Shown in pieces: positions 11,038 to 40,801 of a DNA stretch of 64,000 nucleotides. The notes beneath the pieces were generated by a model. It was not told where the DNA came from, made no database searches, and was given only the letters and a program-made list of their open reading frames with translations. The stretch's first letter is position 1. Each line of letters opens with the position of its first letter. Made by a program: the position numbers and the translations under genes. The DNA comes from Ostreococcus lucimarinus. Taxonomy: Eukaryota. The stretch is taken from the NCBI GenBank assembly GCA_000092065.1, contig CP000600.1, one strand, 5' to 3'.

Positions 11038-12138
11038 ATGACGACGATGATGACGCGCGCGACGGCGACGACGCGCGCGACGGCGGGCGGACGCGCGAGC
11101 GGGAGCGCGGACGCGCGGACGACGCGACGCGTCGCGATGCCGAGCCGGGACGCGGCGACGACGGCGCGCGCGCGACGCGACGCGCGAGCGCGAGCGATGA
11201 AGCGGGTGTTCATCGATGGCGAGGCCGGAACCACGGGGCTTCAGGTGCGCGAACGGTTGGAGGCGCGAGGGGACGTCGAGCTGATTCAACTGGATGAGGG
11301 CTCGAGAAAGAATCTCGAGGCGAGACGCGCGGCGTTGAACGAGTGCGACGCGGCGATTCTGTGCCTTCCCGATCAGGCGGCGGAGGAGGCGGTGAAATTG
11401 GTGGAGAATGAGACGACGGTGGTGATCGATGCGTCGACGGCTTTTCGCGTCGCCGATGGTTGGACGTACGGATTCCCGGAGCTGGCGCCAGGGCATCGAG
11501 AGTTGGTCAAGGCGTCGAAGAGAATCTCAAATCCGGGGTGCTATCCCACCGGGTTCATCGCACTCACTAGACCATTGGTTGACGCGGGCATCCTGTCTCC
11601 AGGCGCGGCGTTGACGGTGAACGCGGTGAGCGGGTACACGGGCGGCGGTAAGGCGCTCATCAAGGTGTACGAGGAGGAAGAACACGAGCCGTGGGGCGCT
11701 TACGGATTTAATCTCGAACACAAGCACTTGCCAGAGATGGCGAAATGGAGCATGATCGGTCGTGAACCAATTTTCATGCCATCTGTCGGTTCCTTCGCGC
11801 AAGGTATGGTGGTGAGCGTACCGTTGCATTACGATCAACTTGCCGCCGACGCTCGCAGCGCCAAGCGTCTGCATGAGTGCTTACGCGCGCGGTACGCGCA
11901 GAGTACGTACGTTTCGGTGCGAGATTTGAACAAGATGGACGACCTCGAGCGTGGAGCTTTCATGAGACCAGACTCTTTGGCGAACACGAACAAGCTCGAG
12001 TTAAGTGTTTACGCCAACGACTCAAAGCGAACCGCCGTTCTCGTGGCAAGGTTAGATAATTTGGGCAAAGGTGCTTCGGGTGCGGCGGTGCAAAACATGA
12101 ACTTGGCGCTTGGACTGGATGAAACAATGGGATTGTAG
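11038..12138 (+). CDS. argC: N-acetyl-gamma-glutamyl-phosphate reductase (short ArgC type) with transit peptide
   Basis: After a presequence of about 53 aa rich in Thr/Arg/Ala: KRVFIDGEAGTTGLQVRERL, AILCLPDQAAEE, VIDASTAFR and the catalytic NPGCYPTG, then SGYTGGGK and DNLGKGASGAAVQNMN. Confidence 0.9.
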   Translation: MTTMMTRATATTRATAGGRASGSADARTTRRVAMPSRDAATTARARRDARARAMKRVFIDGEAGTTGLQVRERLEARGDVELIQLDEGSRKNLEARRAALNECDAAILCLPDQAAEEAVKLVENETTVVIDASTAFRVADGWTYGFPELAPGHRELVKASKRISNPGCYPTGFIALTRPLVDAGILSPGAALTVNAVSGYTGGGKALIKVYEEEEHEPWGAYGFNLEHKHLPEMAKWSMIGREPIFMPSVGSFAQGMVVSVPLHYDQLAADARSAKRLHECLRARYAQSTYVSVRDLNKMDDLERGAFMRPDSLANTNKLELSVYANDSKRTAVLVARLDNLGKGASGAAVQNMNLALGLDETMGL

Positions 12139-12263
12139 GCATTACGAGACAGTATGTTAACATATTATGCTAAGATATACCACGATGAACCATGAAAATA
12201 TTATAGTACCACTAGAATCGTAGTGGCAGAGAATCAGAGCGACGCGCGGTCGCACAAGCTATC

Positions 12264-13213
12264 TCACTTATCAAATAGTGATGGGCGAATCGCGCCGCCA
12301 AGATTCGACGGGAACAACTTCCTCACAAAGCAACCCACTTTCGAACGGTGCTTGTAAATTTTCGTCCGGATTCTGTTGAATGCCTCCGGTGAGCGGACAG
12401 AATCGAATGTTCCAGTGCGTAAGAACATTCCTTCTAGCGCGCGCGCGTACTTTTCTAGAGTGTCAAGATCTTCCAGCAAATCCGTCATAGCGTAATCCAT
12501 CCTGAGAAACGCCGAGCGCGCACGGTGCGAATAATAATTCACATCGCACATCTCCATATCATCGATGCTGTATTCAAACTGCGCCAACGTATGCTATCGT
12601 GTCACGCACGCATATTGTTACTTTAGTCAGTCATCAATCTCTCCGTGCGTCGTCGAAATCACGACTCGCGTGTAGTCGTATCGCTCGCATCGCTCGTCCC
12701 GTCGCACCTGCATGAGCTGCGCAATGTATTCGTGGCAACCCACCACCGCTTGCGCGTGACGATGCGGCCATCGCGTTACGCCCGCTTTTCTACACCTACA
12801 CTCACCGCGAACCAGACGCGCATCGTCAGTCACGCGGTCCGTGCGAGCGACAAAGACTCTCAAAAAAGTCAAAAAAAAATCGCGCGCTGGGCTCAAAAAC
12901 ACAATAAAGCGACGAAAGACACGTGCGCTTTGACGTACTGCAGCCTGAATGATCCAGAGGGCATCCCAAACGCCTTCGCGACTTTGTCCGCGGGCATCAT
13001 CAGGAACGCGTACAGCTCGTGCAAGTCGAACGGCTCGTCCAACTCCTCGTCGATCGCCAACGCCTCGCGTTCGGCAAACTGTTTCGCGACGAGCGCCGCT
13101 CGCCTCGCCCGTTGATCATCATCGATTATCCCCAATCGATGATCTAAGATCGCGCGCGCCGCGCGCGCCTCCGTCGCCGCGAGCGCGTCGCGTTCGTTCG
13201 CAATCGTTCTCAT
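12264..13213 (-). CDS. small RWP-RK domain transcription factor (230 aa; 3 exons: 13213..12939, 12795..12708, 12593..12264)
   Basis: Three separate track ORFs join in phase. Exon 1 ends ...LYAFLMMPADKVAKAFGMPSGSFRL(Q). Exon 2 is CRKAGVTRWPHRHAQAVVGCHEYIAQLMQ. Exon 3 is HTLAQFEYSIDD.... The spliced product restores the canonical L-x-x-F-x...LG...LK-x-CR..G..RWP-x-R motif. Donors are GTACGT and GTGCGA, and both introns carry ACTGAC. Confidence 0.7.
12594..12707 (-). other. spliceosomal intron 2 (114 nt) of RWP-RK gene
   Basis: On the minus strand: CAG|GTGCGA donor, atgACTGACtaa branch box about 29 nt upstream of the GATAG acceptor, phase 0. Confidence 0.6.
12796..12938 (-). other. spliceosomal intron 1 (143 nt) of RWP-RK gene
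   Basis: On the minus strand: CTGCA|GTACGT donor, gtgACTGACgat branch box about 30 nt upstream of the GTGTAG acceptor. The intron splits a Gln codon (ca|g) inside the RWP-RK motif. Confidence 0.7.
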
Positions 13214-13495
13214 CGCGCGTGCGCGCGCGTCGCAGCCACGCGCGCCGCGCCGGGCGAGCGCACCACGGCCTCGCGCCTCGGAATAAAAAAACCCTCCGGT
13301 GGCATCGCGCGCGCCTTCCCGCGTCGCGCGCTTTCACTCGGCACGTTCATCGCACCGTCGATACCCTTTCGATTCGCGCTTGTACGGCGTCTTCGCCGCG
13401 CGCGGTGGCGATAAACGTTCGTGCGCTTTTTCGCCACTTTTTCGGTCTTTTCGGTCTGTTCGACGGCGACCGGTCGACAGTCGGAGATTTAACTT

Positions 13496-13540
13496 GTCGT
13501 ATGCGTAAACAGTCAGAATAAGGACGTATGCGTAAACAGT
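13496..13540. repeat. two tandem copies (27-bp spacing) of intergenic motif CGTATGCGTAAACAGT
   Basis: Exact 16-mers at 13498..13513 and 13525..13540. The first is part of an 18-mer identical to 39377..39394. They lie in the divergent spacer between the RWP-RK gene and the 13632 gene. Confidence 0.9.
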
Positions 13541-13592
13541 TCGAGACCCGTGCGCGCGCGCGCCGGGCGCGCCGGCGTCCCGGACCGCACTC

Positions 13593-13626
<34 letters not shown>

Positions 13627-13631
13627 GCGCC

Positions 13632-14918
13632 ATGCGCCGCGCGCTGGACGACGACGATGATCTCGGAGGCGCGCGTCGACGACGCGACGGCGCGCGAGCG
13701 CGCGCGGGGGCGCGAACGAGCGCGGCGAAGGCGGATGGGGACGGTTGCGCCGCGCGCGGTGCGTCGGCGGCGGCGCGCGAGGAGAACGGCGGCGCGGCGG
13801 CGCCGGGCGAGGGCGAGGGCGCGGGAGGGGCGATGCGCGTCGCGCGCGAGTGGGTCGGGGGTGATGGCGCGAAGGCGCGCGCGAGGGGCGTGGGGAGCGG
13901 GGGCGCGGCGAGGCGGGCGGCGCGCGGGCTAAATATAGCGACGACGACCGCGGTCGGGATGTACGTGTATTGGATACTCATGGGGACGGTGGCTTGGATC
14001 TCGCACTTGGGCGAACGCGCGCCGTGGTTGAGGTTCGCGCTACCGGCGGAAGGATATCCGGGAAACGCGCCGTCGAGCGCGGGGGCGCTCGGATTCGTCG
14101 CGAGAAACGTGCCGCTGAGTCTCATCTTTGTCGTGCCGCATTCAGTGTTTTTGCCGAGTCGATTGCGGAAGATTTTCGGAAAACATGGGCGTTTGATGTA
14201 TAATTTCGTGTCTGCGGCGACGTTGCACTTCTTCTTGTTGAATTTTACGCCGTTGAAGACGCCGGTGGTGATGACGATTCCATTCAACACGAATTTTCAC
14301 AACGCGCTCTCGATTGGATGTCTCGCTTACGCGTCGTATGCGTTCCTCAGCTCACCCGCAACGTTAGGTTTATTAGGTGTGAGCTCGGCGCTCGAGCTTC
14401 GCGACAGTAAATACTCCAATCCAGCGGCTGGCATGGACGCCATCACGTGGATGGGCGTGACGACGTGGCGGCTCGGCGGCGCCTCCGCCTTTGTATTGTT
14501 CACCGGTCTATCCATCATCCCGCGCGAGCTCACGTTGGGTGACTGCATCACGAGATGTGTTGCTGCGGTGTATTTACGTCAGCGCTCGCGATCGTTCCGC
14601 GAGTGGGTGGAAAAGATCGAGGGCGTCCACCTCTTGACGTGGATTTTACGAGGCACGCTCTTGTCCTTCGCGTGTCACGGCGCCTTGCAAGGCGGTGGAA
14701 ACGTTCGCACAGTGGGATGGATTTTATTCGGCGCCGCGAGTTTAGCGGGAATTCTGCGTCTCGCCGAGTCAGAGAGTCCGAACGCTAAGAAGAAACCCAT
14801 TTCTCGCGCCGCGTCCTTTGACGTCGCCGAAGCCGCGCCCGCGGCGCTCGACGACGTCGCCCGAGTCAATCGCCCGGAGCGCTGGCACGCGTGGAACCCG
14901 CACGCTCGCATGACGTGA
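13632..14918 (+). CDS. multi-pass membrane protein (NnrU/ICMT-like topology), function unknown
   Basis: ATG ORF of 428 aa. A Gly/Ala/Arg-rich N-terminal region of about 100 aa is encoded partly by (CGG)n. At least 7 hydrophobic helices follow (MYVYWILMGTVAWISHL, VPLSLIFVVPHSVF, LMYNFVSAATLHFFLLNF ...). The family is a guess. Confidence 0.55.
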   Translation: MRRALDDDDDLGGARRRRDGARARAGARTSAAKADGDGCAARGASAAAREENGGAAAPGEGEGAGGAMRVAREWVGGDGAKARARGVGSGGAARRAARGLNIATTTAVGMYVYWILMGTVAWISHLGERAPWLRFALPAEGYPGNAPSSAGALGFVARNVPLSLIFVVPHSVFLPSRLRKIFGKHGRLMYNFVSAATLHFFLLNFTPLKTPVVMTIPFNTNFHNALSIGCLAYASYAFLSSPATLGLLGVSSALELRDSKYSNPAAGMDAITWMGVTTWRLGGASAFVLFTGLSIIPRELTLGDCITRCVAAVYLRQRSRSFREWVEKIEGVHLLTWILRGTLLSFACHGALQGGGNVRTVGWILFGAASLAGILRLAESESPNAKKKPISRAASFDVAEAAPAALDDVARVNRPERWHAWNPHARMT

Positions 14919-39376: not shown

Positions 39377-39394
39377 GTCGTATGCGTAAACAGT
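39377..39394. repeat. third copy of intergenic motif GTCGTATGCGTAAACAGT
   Basis: Exact 18-mer match to 13496..13513, flanked by direct ATGCGAATCG repeats (39368..39377 and 39402..39411). It lies 33 bp after the stop of the 38289 gene and 310 bp upstream of the KH-protein ATG. Confidence 0.9.
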
Positions 39395-39703: not shown

Positions 39704-40801
39704 ATGAGCGGTGATGGTTTTTTTACGTTCACCGACGCCGATCCGAGCCAGTGGCTGCCCAAAGGGATCGTGGACGAGCGCGAGGAACACGATGCGGGGG
39801 CGTACGCGTCGTTCGCGCTCCCGCAAGGCTCGGCGAGCAGGAGCGCGAGCGACGACAATTCTAGAGGCTCGTTCGATTCGTTTGGGGTGAAATCAAAAGT
39901 GCTCGGGAGCGTGTTGTACGATGATGAAGGATTGATTCCGCTGGGGCTCGGTGGACACGCGTACGTGGACAAGTCGACGTCGCCGAAGAGCACGGCGTCG
40001 CCGACGGCGGCGTTCGTGGCGGATGCGGAGTTCGGCGCGGCGGCGGCGAGTGGATCGAGATTACGTGGGCCTTCTGGTCCTCGACGCGCTGGTCAAGGAG
40101 TCGAGGAAGAAGAACAGCAAGTGGCATCCATAGAGGTCATGGCGAACGGTGGTTTGCGACTGCGCGTGACGCTGCTCGCGGCGGGATTCGTCATCGGCGC
40201 CAGCGGAGCGTCGATTCGAGAAATTATGCGTCACACCGGTTCGACGATTCAGTCTTGGACGCAGCAACCCGAAATGGGGGTATATCATCGTCCATGCCGC
40301 GTTTTCTGCATCCAAGGCTTGCCCGAATCCGTCATGGCGGCCTCGAATATCATCCACGAAGCCGTCGAGCGATACAAGGAGTTGTGCGAAGGGAAGCGCC
40401 GCGGAGAGTTTGTGCAGCGATTGCAGTACATTCGCGGCGTTGAATTCTCGTACCAACCGCCTCCGAAAAATGCTGTACCAAATGCTGCCTCCGTGAATGG
40501 CGCCACTCGTCAAGGTACGAATCCACTCCTGATGCCGAGGCAACCGACGAATGCGGCGAATGAAACCATGCGCCTCCTCGCCGCCGCGCAGGCGCAGCGA
40601 GCCGCTATGCAACATTACCAAAACCTTGCGACACAATCCTACGCCGCGGGGTTAGCCGCCGGTGCTAAGATGGGTCATGTTCCGGCGATATCGGCGATGT
40701 CGGCGATGCCAGACTCTGAGAATCCTTTTGCCGCCGCTCAAATGCCGAACCCAAGTGATTTTTTCACCGCGTTCAGCGCGCAAACTCGCCCGAATGTTTG
40801 A
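39704..40801 (+). CDS. KH-domain RNA-binding protein
   Basis: ATG ORF of 365 aa with a type-I KH core: LRLRVTLLAAGFVIGASGASIREIMRHTGSTIQSW...CRVFCIQGLPESVMAASNIIHEAVERY. Confidence 0.7.
   Translation: MSGDGFFTFTDADPSQWLPKGIVDEREEHDAGAYASFALPQGSASRSASDDNSRGSFDSFGVKSKVLGSVLYDDEGLIPLGLGGHAYVDKSTSPKSTASPTAAFVADAEFGAAAASGSRLRGPSGPRRAGQGVEEEEQQVASIEVMANGGLRLRVTLLAAGFVIGASGASIREIMRHTGSTIQSWTQQPEMGVYHRPCRVFCIQGLPESVMAASNIIHEAVERYKELCEGKRRGEFVQRLQYIRGVEFSYQPPPKNAVPNAASVNGATRQGTNPLLMPRQPTNAANETMRLLAAAQAQRAAMQHYQNLATQSYAAGLAAGAKMGHVPAISAMSAMPDSENPFAAAQMPNPSDFFTAFSAQTRPNV

What the first reader, a model, noticed from the sequence alone, without database searches (positions are those of the whole stretch)
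12264..13213. Small RWP-RK regulator hidden across three track ORFs, with an intron splitting the RWP-RK motif itself
**Seen in sequence.** None of the three minus-strand ORFs (12893..13213, 12627..12902, 12264..12587) contains a complete domain.
- Joining 12939|12795 (donor GTACGT, acceptor GTGTAG, ACTGAC branch) yields ...LYAFLMMPADKVAKAFGMPSGSFRLQ-CRKAGVTRWPHR.... This matches the canonical RWP-RK spacing (LG-x6-LK-x-x-CR-x-x-G-x-x-RWP-x-R) residue for residue.
- A second in-phase intron (GTGCGA...ACTGAC...GATAG) attaches a 109-aa C-terminal exon whose track ORF starts only at a TTG.

**Established knowledge.** Short RWP-RK proteins (MID in Chlamydomonas and Volvox, RKD in land plants) control gamete or egg-cell identity. 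Long ones (NIT2/NLP) control nitrate signalling.

**Inference.** At 230 aa this belongs to the short class. It is therefore a candidate sexual-cycle regulator in a lineage where sex has not been observed directly. Its upstream spacer carries the duplicated CGTATGCGTAAACAGT motif.
Basis: partly seen in the sequence, partly recalled or inferred. Interest (0 to 1): 0.55.

Follow-up and report, generated by a model that had tools for sequence, protein, structure and literature searches.

The report
Known fast-evolving RWP-RK regulator gene
The three short ORFs really are one spliced gene for a small RWP-RK DNA-binding regulator of the marine alga Ostreococcus lucimarinus, but this exact gene model is already in the public databases and it lies outside the alga's candidate mating-type region, so a role in sex remains a guess.

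Summary
Joining 13213..12939, 12795..12708 and 12593..12264 (minus strand) gives a 230-aa protein. It passes Pfam's RWP-RK threshold (32 bits against 29.3), which none of the three ORFs does alone. The product is residue-for-residue XP_001422716.1 / UniProt A4SB51, "RWP-RK domain-containing protein", of Ostreococcus lucimarinus CCE9901. The gene model is therefore already known.

Related contigs support both introns. GT..AG is conserved, exon 2 is always 88 nt, and intron lengths vary by non-multiples of 3.

The sexual-regulator reading is not supported by linkage:
- The gene lies in normal-GC sequence (window 0.595, gene GC3 0.66) on a 549-kb record.
- It sits between ArgC and a conserved 428-aa gene.
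- An orthologue occupies that same slot in every Ostreococcus-like locus with enough flank (about 24), with no presence/absence variation.
- The published mating-type candidate is a different RWP-RK gene, on chromosome 2.

New here is the rate of change. The gene evolves very fast, at 76-79% protein identity where ArgC is 98%, and 28-34% where ArgC is 77-93%. dN/dS is 0.65-0.79 against 0.05-0.07 for ArgC. It also carries a subfamily-specific C-terminal module (DL..A..F..YKHR). That pattern fits a reproductive regulator but does not show one. Interest is low to moderate.

The parts
12939..13213 (-). Exon 1 (CDS nt 1-275, residues 1-92 first two bases). It holds the variable N-terminus and the first half of the RWP-RK domain (...ELYAFLMMPADKVAKAFGMPSGSFRLQ).
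   Evidence: It is identical to the RefSeq model. The first ~35 codons are not conserved as protein: the reading frame differs in L001 and L003.
12796..12938 (-). Intron 1, 143 nt, phase 2. Donor GTACGT, ACTGAC at 12830-12825, acceptor ..GTGTAG. It splits the RWP-RK domain.
   Evidence: GT..AG is conserved and lengths are 143/136/131/130 nt in the window, L002, L003 and L004. An intron lies at the same position and phase in the distant orthologues L007, L008 and L012. It is absent from L005, L006 and L016.
12708..12795 (-). Exon 2, 88 nt: CRKAGVTRWPHRHAQAVVGCHEYIAQLMQ, the RWP-x-R core and the start of the following helix.
   Evidence: It is 88 nt in all four close haplotypes. TGT AGA to TGC CGA in L002 is a synonymous change at the junction.
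12594..12707 (-). Intron 2, 114 nt, phase 0. Donor GTGCGA, ACTGAC at 12631-12626, acceptor GATAG. If retained, it gives a stop after 26 codons.
   Evidence: Lengths are 114/111/116/116 nt. An intron lies at the same position in L008, L012 and L016.
12264..12593 (-). Exon 3, 330 nt including the TGA stop at 12264-12266. It encodes most of the subfamily-specific C-terminal module. The stop lies 125 nt from the stop of the convergent ArgC gene.
   Evidence: Invariant residues are D163 L164 A171 F178 Y201 H203 R204 in 8 orthologues.
12750..13024 (-). Coding span of the RWP-RK domain (residues 64-107), interrupted by intron 1.
   Evidence: Pfam PF02042, 32.0 bits against cut-off 29.3. All 8 orthologues match PF02042, best E 3e-16. 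F89 R94 G97 W101 P102 R104 are invariant.
12336..12734 (-). Coding span of the C-terminal module (residues ~113-207: Y-x-Y-[IV] ... DL..L...A...E..F[LM]R.G ... VYKHR), interrupted by intron 2.
   Evidence: The alignments. There is no Pfam match and no PDB match. It is predicted all-helical, but the model is poor (pLDDT 52).
13210..13305 (-). Upstream ORF of 31 codons (MPPEGFFIPRREAVV...) whose TGA overlaps the main ATG (ATGA). It contains a T7 run within 13282-13294.
   Evidence: Other contigs have T5, which puts this ATG in frame with the main ORF (P0042, P0037).
13498..13540 (-). Two exact copies of ACTGTTTACGCATACG (gene-sense orientation), 27 nt apart. They lie 285-327 nt upstream of the RWP-RK ATG and 92-134 nt upstream of the ATG of the divergent 428-aa gene.
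   Evidence: about 0.03 matches at up to 2 mismatches expected by chance. In L002 the downstream copy is kept with 1 mismatch and the part of the upstream copy within the contig is identical, 27 nt apart, while the spacer has diverged. L003 has one degenerate copy.

Best explanation
This is a genuine three-exon nuclear gene of Ostreococcus lucimarinus CCE9901. It is already annotated as XP_001422716.1 / A4SB51 and encodes a 230-aa transcription regulator of the RWP-RK family.

**Shown here.**
- The spliced product carries a complete RWP-RK domain, split by a phase-2 intron.
- Behind the domain is a roughly 95-residue conserved module found only in this small subfamily.
- The gene occupies a fixed slot, convergent with ArgC and divergent from a 428-aa gene, in ordinary normal-GC sequence.
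- An orthologue fills that slot in every Ostreococcus-like lineage sampled.
- Its non-synonymous rate is about 15-30 times that of ArgC next door.

**Inferred mechanism.**
- The RWP-RK helices bind DNA, as established for NIT2, NLPs and MID.
- The long C-terminal helices mediate dimerisation or contact with a partner protein.
- The fast change, strongest in that module, reflects co-evolution with a partner or target, or weak constraint.

**Biological programme.** It is not the mating-type-linked determinant. My best guess is a conditionally used life-cycle or nutrient-limitation programme. I put a specifically sexual-cycle role at roughly 0.2.
For: **Identity and gene model.**
- Gene model and domain.
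- Exact identity to the deposited protein, on a 549,133-bp record.
- Neighbours are the adjacent RefSeq proteins ArgC, transportin and A4SB52.
- Splice sites, exon lengths and synonymous junction changes are conserved.
- Intron 1 position is shared by distant orthologues.

**Synteny.** A family member lies downstream of ArgC on the opposite strand in L001-L003, L005, L007-L017, L019-L027 and L031. None is found in L032, whose ArgC is 66% identical.

**Rate of change.**
- Protein identity, RWP-RK against ArgC: 79/98.4, 76/98.7, 30/91, 34/93.5, 33/86 and 28/77%.
- dN/dS is 0.79 and 0.65, and 1.37 in the C-terminal module, against 0.05-0.07 for ArgC.
- The gene region is the most divergent stretch of otherwise 91-97% identical loci.

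**Still functional.** The reading frame is intact and 14 residues are invariant across lineages whose ArgC dS exceeds 1.5. All 8 orthologues match PF02042.

**Not in a mating-type-like region.** Window GC is 0.595 and gene GC3 is 0.66, against 0.58-0.74 for neighbours. Mating-type regions show a 9-17% GC drop and about 20% lower GC3 (PMC8557840).
Against: - No transcript evidence was obtained, so the splice junctions rest on comparison and on the existing annotation.
- The structure model is poor (pLDDT 52), so the helical-dimerisation idea is weak.
- dN/dS of 0.65-0.8 could also mean relaxed constraint.
- I could not name the chromosome or retrieve the O. tauri orthologue, so "not chromosome 2" rests on GC content, record length and synteny rather than on a chromosome label.
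- I could not align the protein with authentic MID, RKD or NLP sequences.
Confidence: 0.8

Rival explanations
1. It is the MID-like, mating-type-limited sex determinant of this alga. It would be present only in one mating type and would specify minus gametes, as in Chlamydomonas.
For: - It is a short protein with an RWP-RK domain.
- It diverges very quickly between lineages, as I recall being reported for sex-determining genes such as MID.
- O. lucimarinus CCE9901 is regarded as MT-minus because it has an RWP-RK gene (PMC8557840).
Against: - The published candidate lies in the low-GC block of chromosome 2 (ostta02g01710 family).
- This gene is in normal-GC DNA with normal GC3, on a 549-kb record, flanked by housekeeping genes in conserved order.
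- A family member is present in every one of about 24 Ostreococcus-like loci examined.
- The one apparent deletion (L011) is a run of N.
Confidence: 0.04
2. It is an autosomal regulator of the cryptic sexual cycle (gamete, zygote or meiosis programme). It would act downstream of, or together with, the chromosome-2 mating-type gene, and its fast evolution would be driven by reproductive selection.
For: - dN/dS is 0.65-0.79 overall and 1.37 in the C-terminal module, against 0.05-0.07 next door.
- The frame and key residues are kept over deep divergence.
- Short RWP-RK proteins control gamete identity in volvocine algae and land plants (reviewed in PMC11291829).
Against: - There is no expression, linkage or functional evidence.
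- Fast evolution is not specific to reproductive genes.
- The domain found no named MID or RKD sequence among the 31 significant HMMER hits.
- Four of the five RWP-RK genes of this alga are equally "short".
Confidence: 0.2
3. It is a nutrient-response regulator (nitrogen or iron), like NIT2/NLP or the O. tauri RWP-RK gene ostta14g01760.
For: - RWP-RK factors commonly control nitrate responses (PMC4620153).
- An O. tauri RWP-RK gene, ostta14g01760, is strongly induced under iron limitation (PMC4855317).
- The gene is stably linked to ArgC, an arginine-synthesis gene.
Against: - There are no GAF or PB1 domains.
- Orthology to ostta14g01760 could not be established.
- A regulator of core metabolism would not be expected to change at dN/dS of about 0.7.
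- Adjacency to ArgC is convergent (3' ends facing), which gives no shared promoter.
Confidence: 0.2
4. It is a decaying gene under relaxed constraint, on its way to becoming a pseudogene.
For: - dN/dS is high.
- The first ~35 codons change reading frame between lineages.
- One contig (L001) has a +1 frameshift in exon 2 and a 76-nt duplication in intron 2.
Against: - Full-length reading frames could be assembled, with GT..AG introns where present, for the window, L002, L005, L007, L008 and L012. L003 and L006 are open over all the sequence recovered. L016 and L019 show matching open exons.
- All 8 aligned products pass the RWP-RK model.
- 14 residues are invariant where ArgC dS exceeds 1.5.
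- At deep divergence dN/dS falls to 0.29-0.52.
- L001 is a long-read-style metagenome contig with other homopolymer indels, so its frameshift may be an error.
Confidence: 0.05

Closest known systems
XP_001422716.1 / ABP01033.1 / UniProt A4SB51, 'RWP-RK domain-containing protein', Ostreococcus lucimarinus CCE9901
   Same: It is identical over all 230 residues, so the exon-intron model is the same.
   Different: Nothing differs. The finding re-derives an existing annotation. The database entry carries no function beyond the domain name.
Mamiellales candidate MT-minus RWP-RK gene (O. tauri ostta02g01710 and its O. lucimarinus counterpart on chromosome 2)
   Same: Same alga group and same DNA-binding domain family. 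Both have been, or could be, proposed as sex regulators (PMC8557840, PMC5498103).
   Different: That gene lies in the low-GC, non-recombining block of the big outlier chromosome and is absent from MT-plus genomes. This one is in normal-GC DNA and is present in all sampled lineages. I could not retrieve that protein to compare the sequences.
MID (minus dominance) of Chlamydomonas and Volvox
   Same: A small protein whose only recognisable database domain is RWP-RK. Its sequence evolves fast.
   Different: MID is mating-type-limited and this gene is not. Here the domain is central and is followed by a roughly 120-aa tail with its own conserved module. No orthology could be shown.
Land-plant RKD factors (egg-cell and germ-cell regulators)
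   Same: A non-NLP RWP-RK protein without GAF or PB1 domains.
   Different: According to the review read (PMC11291829), the RKD subgroup proper has a conserved region N-terminal of the domain and no algal members. Here the N-terminus is unconserved and the conserved extra module is C-terminal.
NIT2 / NLP nitrate regulators
   Same: The RWP-RK DNA-binding domain.
   Different: There is no GAF-like N-terminal domain and no PB1 C-terminal domain, and the protein is only 230 aa.
Unnamed syntenic Ostreococcus subfamily (P0050, P0052, spliced products of L008, L012, L016 and L019; also P0051 from a 44.5% GC contig)
   Same: They share the RWP-RK domain, the C-terminal DL..A..F..YKHR module and, except P0051 (context unknown), the position next to ArgC. 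Intron 1 and/or intron 2 positions are often shared as well.
   Different: Protein identity is only 26-34%. Intron number ranges from 0 to 3 and protein length from 171 to about 390 aa.

Membership tests
RWP-RK domain family (Pfam PF02042) | The domain model is matched above the curated gathering score. | tested here: met
   32.0 bits against 29.3, residues 64-107, and only for the spliced product. All 8 orthologues match.
RWP-RK domain family (Pfam PF02042) | The R-W-P-x-R-K signature. | tested here: met
   The window has RWPHRH. W101, P102 and R104 are invariant across orthologues. The final K is present in L002 and L008 but is H, Q or R elsewhere.
MID (volvocine minus-dominance) | The gene is confined to one mating-type haplotype, in a non-recombining, low-GC region. 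| tested here: not met
   Window GC is 0.595 and gene GC3 is 0.66, against 0.58-0.74 for neighbours. A family member lies at the syntenic slot in every Ostreococcus-like locus examined.
MID (volvocine minus-dominance) | Groups with MID sequences in a phylogeny. | tested here: inconclusive
   HMMER against 1.84 billion representatives gave 31 hits. The few that carried a source name were not MID, RKD or NLP. No authentic MID sequence was available to align.
MID (volvocine minus-dominance) | Induced in gametogenesis and necessary and sufficient for the minus programme. | not testable with these tools
   This needs expression data and genetics.
Mamiellales MT-minus RWP-RK (ostta02g01710 family) | Located in the low-GC block of the big outlier chromosome (chromosome 2). 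| tested here: not met
   The record is 549,133 bp and GC is normal. The flanking order transportin-ArgC-[gene]-428aa-DEAD helicase is conserved across lineages.
Mamiellales MT-minus RWP-RK (ostta02g01710 family) | Absent from genomes of the opposite mating type. | tested here: inconclusive
   No locus lacks the gene, but the metagenome contigs cannot be assigned to mating types.
NLP / NIT2 | GAF-like N-terminal domain and, for NLP, a PB1 C-terminal domain. | tested here: not met
   RWP-RK is the only Pfam hit at E <= 1.
Land-plant RKD subgroup | A conserved region N-terminal of the RWP-RK domain, with members from bryophytes and vascular plants only (PMC11291829). | tested here: inconclusive
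   The N-terminus is not conserved even among close relatives. No RKD sequences were available for direct comparison.

The most novel reading that the evidence does not exclude
This autosomal, syntenic, very fast-evolving RWP-RK gene, with its private C-terminal module, is a component of the unobserved sexual cycle of Ostreococcus. For example, it could be a gamete- or zygote-specific regulator whose partner interface is under reproductive selection. It would then offer a second, non-mating-type-linked handle on sex in Mamiellales.
Probability: 0.15. Interest if true: 0.55.

Novelty: already known. Interest (0 to 1): 0.22.

Why it matters
As a gene prediction it adds nothing, because the model and its domain name are already in RefSeq and UniProt. 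The idea that an RWP-RK gene marks the minus mating type of Mamiellales is also published, for another locus.

The modest added value is comparative. One of the five RWP-RK genes of this tiny alga is held in a fixed chromosomal slot across the genus while its protein changes far faster than its neighbour ArgC. If sex is ever induced in culture, this would be a reasonable candidate to look at, after the chromosome-2 gene.

Tried and rejected
1. **L011 "deletion".** It looked like a presence/absence polymorphism that removed the RWP exon. The alignment shows it is a run of N, that is, a scaffold gap.
2. **Conserved introns as hidden RNA genes.** Introns are 91-95% identical to L002, against 89-90% for exons. 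Rfam at E <= 1 found nothing in 11800-14000. Intron divergence is close to the synonymous divergence, so nothing special is needed.
3. **L022 and L024 as two divergent alleles in one species.** Both have ArgC 86% identical to the window but very different RWP-RK genes. Their ArgC DNA is only 76.5% identical, so they are different species.
4. **Structure.** The AlphaFold2 model from a 10-row alignment has pLDDT 52 and pTM 0.37. That is too poor for a fold search, so none was run. A PDB sequence search gave only chance hits with E > 0.5.
5. **The O. tauri orthologue, and whether it is the iron-induced ostta14g01760.** No named O. tauri protein came back from the searches. The paper's text and supplements list no neighbouring genes.
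6. **Spliced transcripts among database ORFs.** All inspected members read through into intron sequence, so they are genomic.
7. **The Palenik 2007 genome paper (for chromosome sizes) and the supplement of PMC8557840.** Neither is held.
8. **The first word-index protein search.** It missed even 97%-identical exon-3 ORFs, so its negative results carry little weight.
Full report
**1. What is in the sequence**

On the minus strand between 13213 and 12264 lie three ORFs in three different frames: 12893..13213, 12627..12902 and 12264..12587. Each was scanned alone against Pfam. The first and third match nothing. The second gives only the C-terminal third of the RWP-RK model, at 21.1 bits against a cut-off of 29.3.

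Removing 12938..12796 (143 nt, GTACGT...GTGTAG) and 12707..12594 (114 nt, GTGCGA...GATAG) gives a 693-nt reading frame of 230 codons. An ACTGAC lies about 30 nt upstream of each acceptor. The product reads ...LYAFLMMPADKVAKAFGMPSGSFRLQ|CRKAGVTRWPHR.... It scores 32.0 bits for PF02042 over residues 64-107.

**2. Whose gene it is**

An exact-sequence look-up shows that the 230-aa product is XP_001422716.1 / ABP01033.1 / UniProt A4SB51, "RWP-RK domain-containing protein". It belongs to Ostreococcus lucimarinus CCE9901 and lies on a record of 549,133 bp.

The flanking ORFs are the adjacent database proteins:
- transportin, XP_001422715.1 (A4SB49);
- ArgC, XP_001422554.1 (A4SB50);
- an uncharacterised 428-aa protein, XP_001422555.1 (A4SB52).

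The gene is therefore not hidden. A review of the family already lists five RWP-RK genes for this alga, one NLP and four RKD-type (PMC11291829).

**3. Independent support for the introns**

No transcript data were reachable. All database ORFs from this locus read on into intron sequence, so they are genomic. Comparison with related contigs supports the model instead.
- In three closely related haplotypes (L002, L003, L004), whose ArgC where present is 98.4-98.7% identical in protein, both GT..AG pairs are kept.
- Exon 2 is always 88 nt, and the stretch aligned to exon 3 is 330 nt in all four sequences.
- The introns measure 143/136/131/130 nt and 114/111/116/116 nt. The three ORFs can therefore only be joined by splicing.
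- At the first acceptor, L002 reads TGC CGA where the window reads TGT AGA. Both changes are synonymous (C-R), and they abolish the second AG 6 nt downstream, so the upstream AG is the conserved one.
- In much more distant orthologues an intron sits at the same place and phase in L007, L008 and L012. An intron at the position of intron 2 occurs in L008, L012 and L016. L005 and L006 have no intron at all.

**4. Genomic setting and the mating-type question**

The literature places the candidate MID-like gene of Mamiellales in the low-GC, non-recombining block of the big outlier chromosome. That is chromosome 2 in Ostreococcus, and the O. tauri gene is ostta02g01710. The gene is absent from strains of the opposite type (PMC8557840 and PMC5498103). 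That block is defined by a 9-17% drop in GC, and its core genes have about 20% lower GC3.

The present window has GC 0.595, and the 12-14 kb bin has 0.606. The gene's GC3 is 0.66, within the 0.58-0.74 of its neighbours.

I fetched every Ostreococcus-like locus I could reach through ArgC or through the gene's own exons:
- L001-L003, L005, L007-L017 and L019;
- L020-L027 and L031 from a metagenome scan.

In every one with enough sequence downstream of ArgC, a member of this family lies there on the opposite strand. The single apparent absence, L011, is a scaffold gap of N. A locus whose ArgC is only 66% identical (L032, probably another genus) has none within 3 kb.

The gene is thus an ordinary, fixed, syntenic gene of the genus. 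It is distinct from the chromosome-2 candidate. I could not read the chromosome number of the 549-kb record, so this point rests on GC content, synteny and record length.

**5. What is unusual: the rate of change**

Protein identity to the window product, set against the ArgC identity of the same contig:

| Locus | RWP-RK identity | ArgC identity |
|---|---|---|
| L002 | 79% | 98.4% |
| L003 | 76% | 98.7% |
| L005 | 30% | 91% |
| L007 | 34% | 93.5% |
| L008 | 33% | 86% |
| L012 | 28% | 77% |

Nei-Gojobori estimates:
- dN/dS is 0.79 (L002) and 0.65 (L003) for this gene.
- It is 1.37 in the C-terminal third.
- It is 0.05-0.07 for ArgC, at similar dS (0.14 against 0.11 for L002).

In pairs of contigs that are 91-97% identical across the flanks, the gene region drops to 75-87% identity and carries many gaps.

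The gene is nevertheless not decaying:
- Full-length reading frames could be assembled for the window, L002, L005, L007, L008 and L012. L003 and L006 are open over all the sequence recovered.
- All eight aligned products match PF02042.
- Fourteen residues are invariant where ArgC dS exceeds 1.5. They are F89, R94, G97, W101, P102 and R104 in the domain, and Y115, D163, L164, A171, F178, Y201, H203 and R204 behind it.
- At deep divergence dN/dS falls to 0.3-0.5.

The first ~35 codons are not conserved as protein. In L001 and L003 the same DNA is read in another frame.

**6. The family**

A HMMER search of 1.84 billion representative proteins gave only 31 hits at E <= 0.001.
- The exon fragments of close relatives account for several of them.
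- Only three hits (P0050, P0051, P0052) also cover the C-terminal module.
- P0050 and P0052 lie next to ArgC and are therefore orthologues.
- P0051 comes from a 1.1-kb, 44.5% GC contig of unknown origin.
- The remaining hits match the domain only. Only a few carried a source name, among them a Cryptomonas protein and, in a second search, a Closterium protein. None was a MID, RKD or NLP.

The C-terminal module (Y-x-Y-[IV] ... DL..L...A...E..F[LM]R.G ... VYKHR) has no Pfam or PDB counterpart. AlphaFold2 predicts long helices for it, but the model is poor (pLDDT 52) and I did not use it further.

**7. How it most likely works**

- *Shown:* a complete RWP-RK domain and a conserved private module.
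- *From established knowledge of NIT2, NLP and MID:* the domain binds DNA and the proteins act as transcription regulators.
- *Inferred:* the helical tail is a dimerisation or partner surface, and its rapid change reflects co-evolution or weak constraint.

Which programme it controls is open. The mating-type-determinant reading fails the linkage tests. A sexual-cycle role without linkage fits the evolutionary rate but nothing else. A nutrient role is suggested only by analogy, for instance with an O. tauri RWP-RK gene, ostta14g01760, that is strongly induced by iron limitation (PMC4855317). I could not establish orthology to that gene.

**8. The upstream motif**

ACTGTTTACGCATACG (gene-sense strand) occurs twice, 27 nt apart, at 13498-13540 in the spacer shared with the divergent 428-aa gene. 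A third exact copy lies at 39379-39394, 23 nt upstream of the ATG of another minus-strand ORF. About 0.03 matches at up to 2 mismatches are expected by chance.

In L002 the downstream copy is kept with one mismatch, and the part of the upstream copy that lies within the contig is identical, 27 nt apart, while the spacer between them has changed. L003 keeps one degenerate copy. This looks like a real cis-element, but there is nothing to say which gene it serves.

**9. Verdict**

- Novelty: already known as an annotated gene.
- The comparative result (fixed position, very fast protein evolution, private C-terminal module) is new to me, but of modest interest.

Noticed in passing
window 13282-13305 (minus strand): A T7 run lies in the 5' leader. 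In the window the upstream ATG at 13305 opens a 31-codon uORF that ends in an ATGA overlap with the main start. Other contigs have T5, which puts that ATG (and a further one) in frame and gives 136-151-aa exon-1 ORFs (P0042, P0037).
   Followed up: partly
L001:5900-7400; protein P0132: These are mosaic haplotypes. L001 has an L003-type promoter and 5' half of exon 1, but a window-type (99-100% identical) remainder. P0132 is an L003-type exon 3 with a window-type tail. The cause is either recombination between diverged lineages or chimeric metagenome assembly. L001 also carries a 76-nt tandem duplication in intron 2 and a +1 nt frameshift in exon 2.
   Followed up: partly
L004:1-262: In this 1.2-kb contig the 3' end of intron 2 and the start of exon 3 are fused directly upstream of the middle of exon 1. 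This is either a local rearrangement or duplication, or a misassembly.
   Followed up: no
window 39379-39394: A third exact copy of the 16-nt motif lies 23 nt upstream of the ATG (39356) of a 629-aa minus-strand ORF with no Pfam match. The spacer is shared with a KH-domain gene starting at 39704.
   Followed up: partly
window 11038-12138 (+): The ArgC ORF runs 366 aa from its first ATG and has an Ala/Thr/Arg-rich leader that may be a transit peptide. The RefSeq model XP_001422554.1 is 313 aa. Its stop lies only 125 nt from the stop of the RWP-RK gene, so the 3' ends are convergent and possibly overlapping.
   Followed up: no
L008-L010, intron 2 of the orthologue (alignment A4 columns ~1110-1285): A (GTTT)n microsatellite inside the intron varies in copy number between contigs. 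It is the place where two scaffolds (L008, L011) break into N.
   Followed up: no
L005, L006, L007, L008, L012, L016: Intron number in the orthologous gene ranges from 0 (L005, L006) through 1 (L007) and 2 (window) to 3 (L008, L012). L016 has at least 2 and lacks intron 1. Positions are shared where introns are present, so there has been intron loss or gain within one genus.
   Followed up: partly
window 13632-14918 (+): The divergently transcribed 428-aa gene (A4SB52) has no Pfam match. It is conserved in all the Ostreococcus loci and looks like a multi-pass membrane protein. The low-complexity Ala/Arg-rich N-terminal part overlaps a long GC-rich antisense ORF (13334..14290).
   Followed up: no
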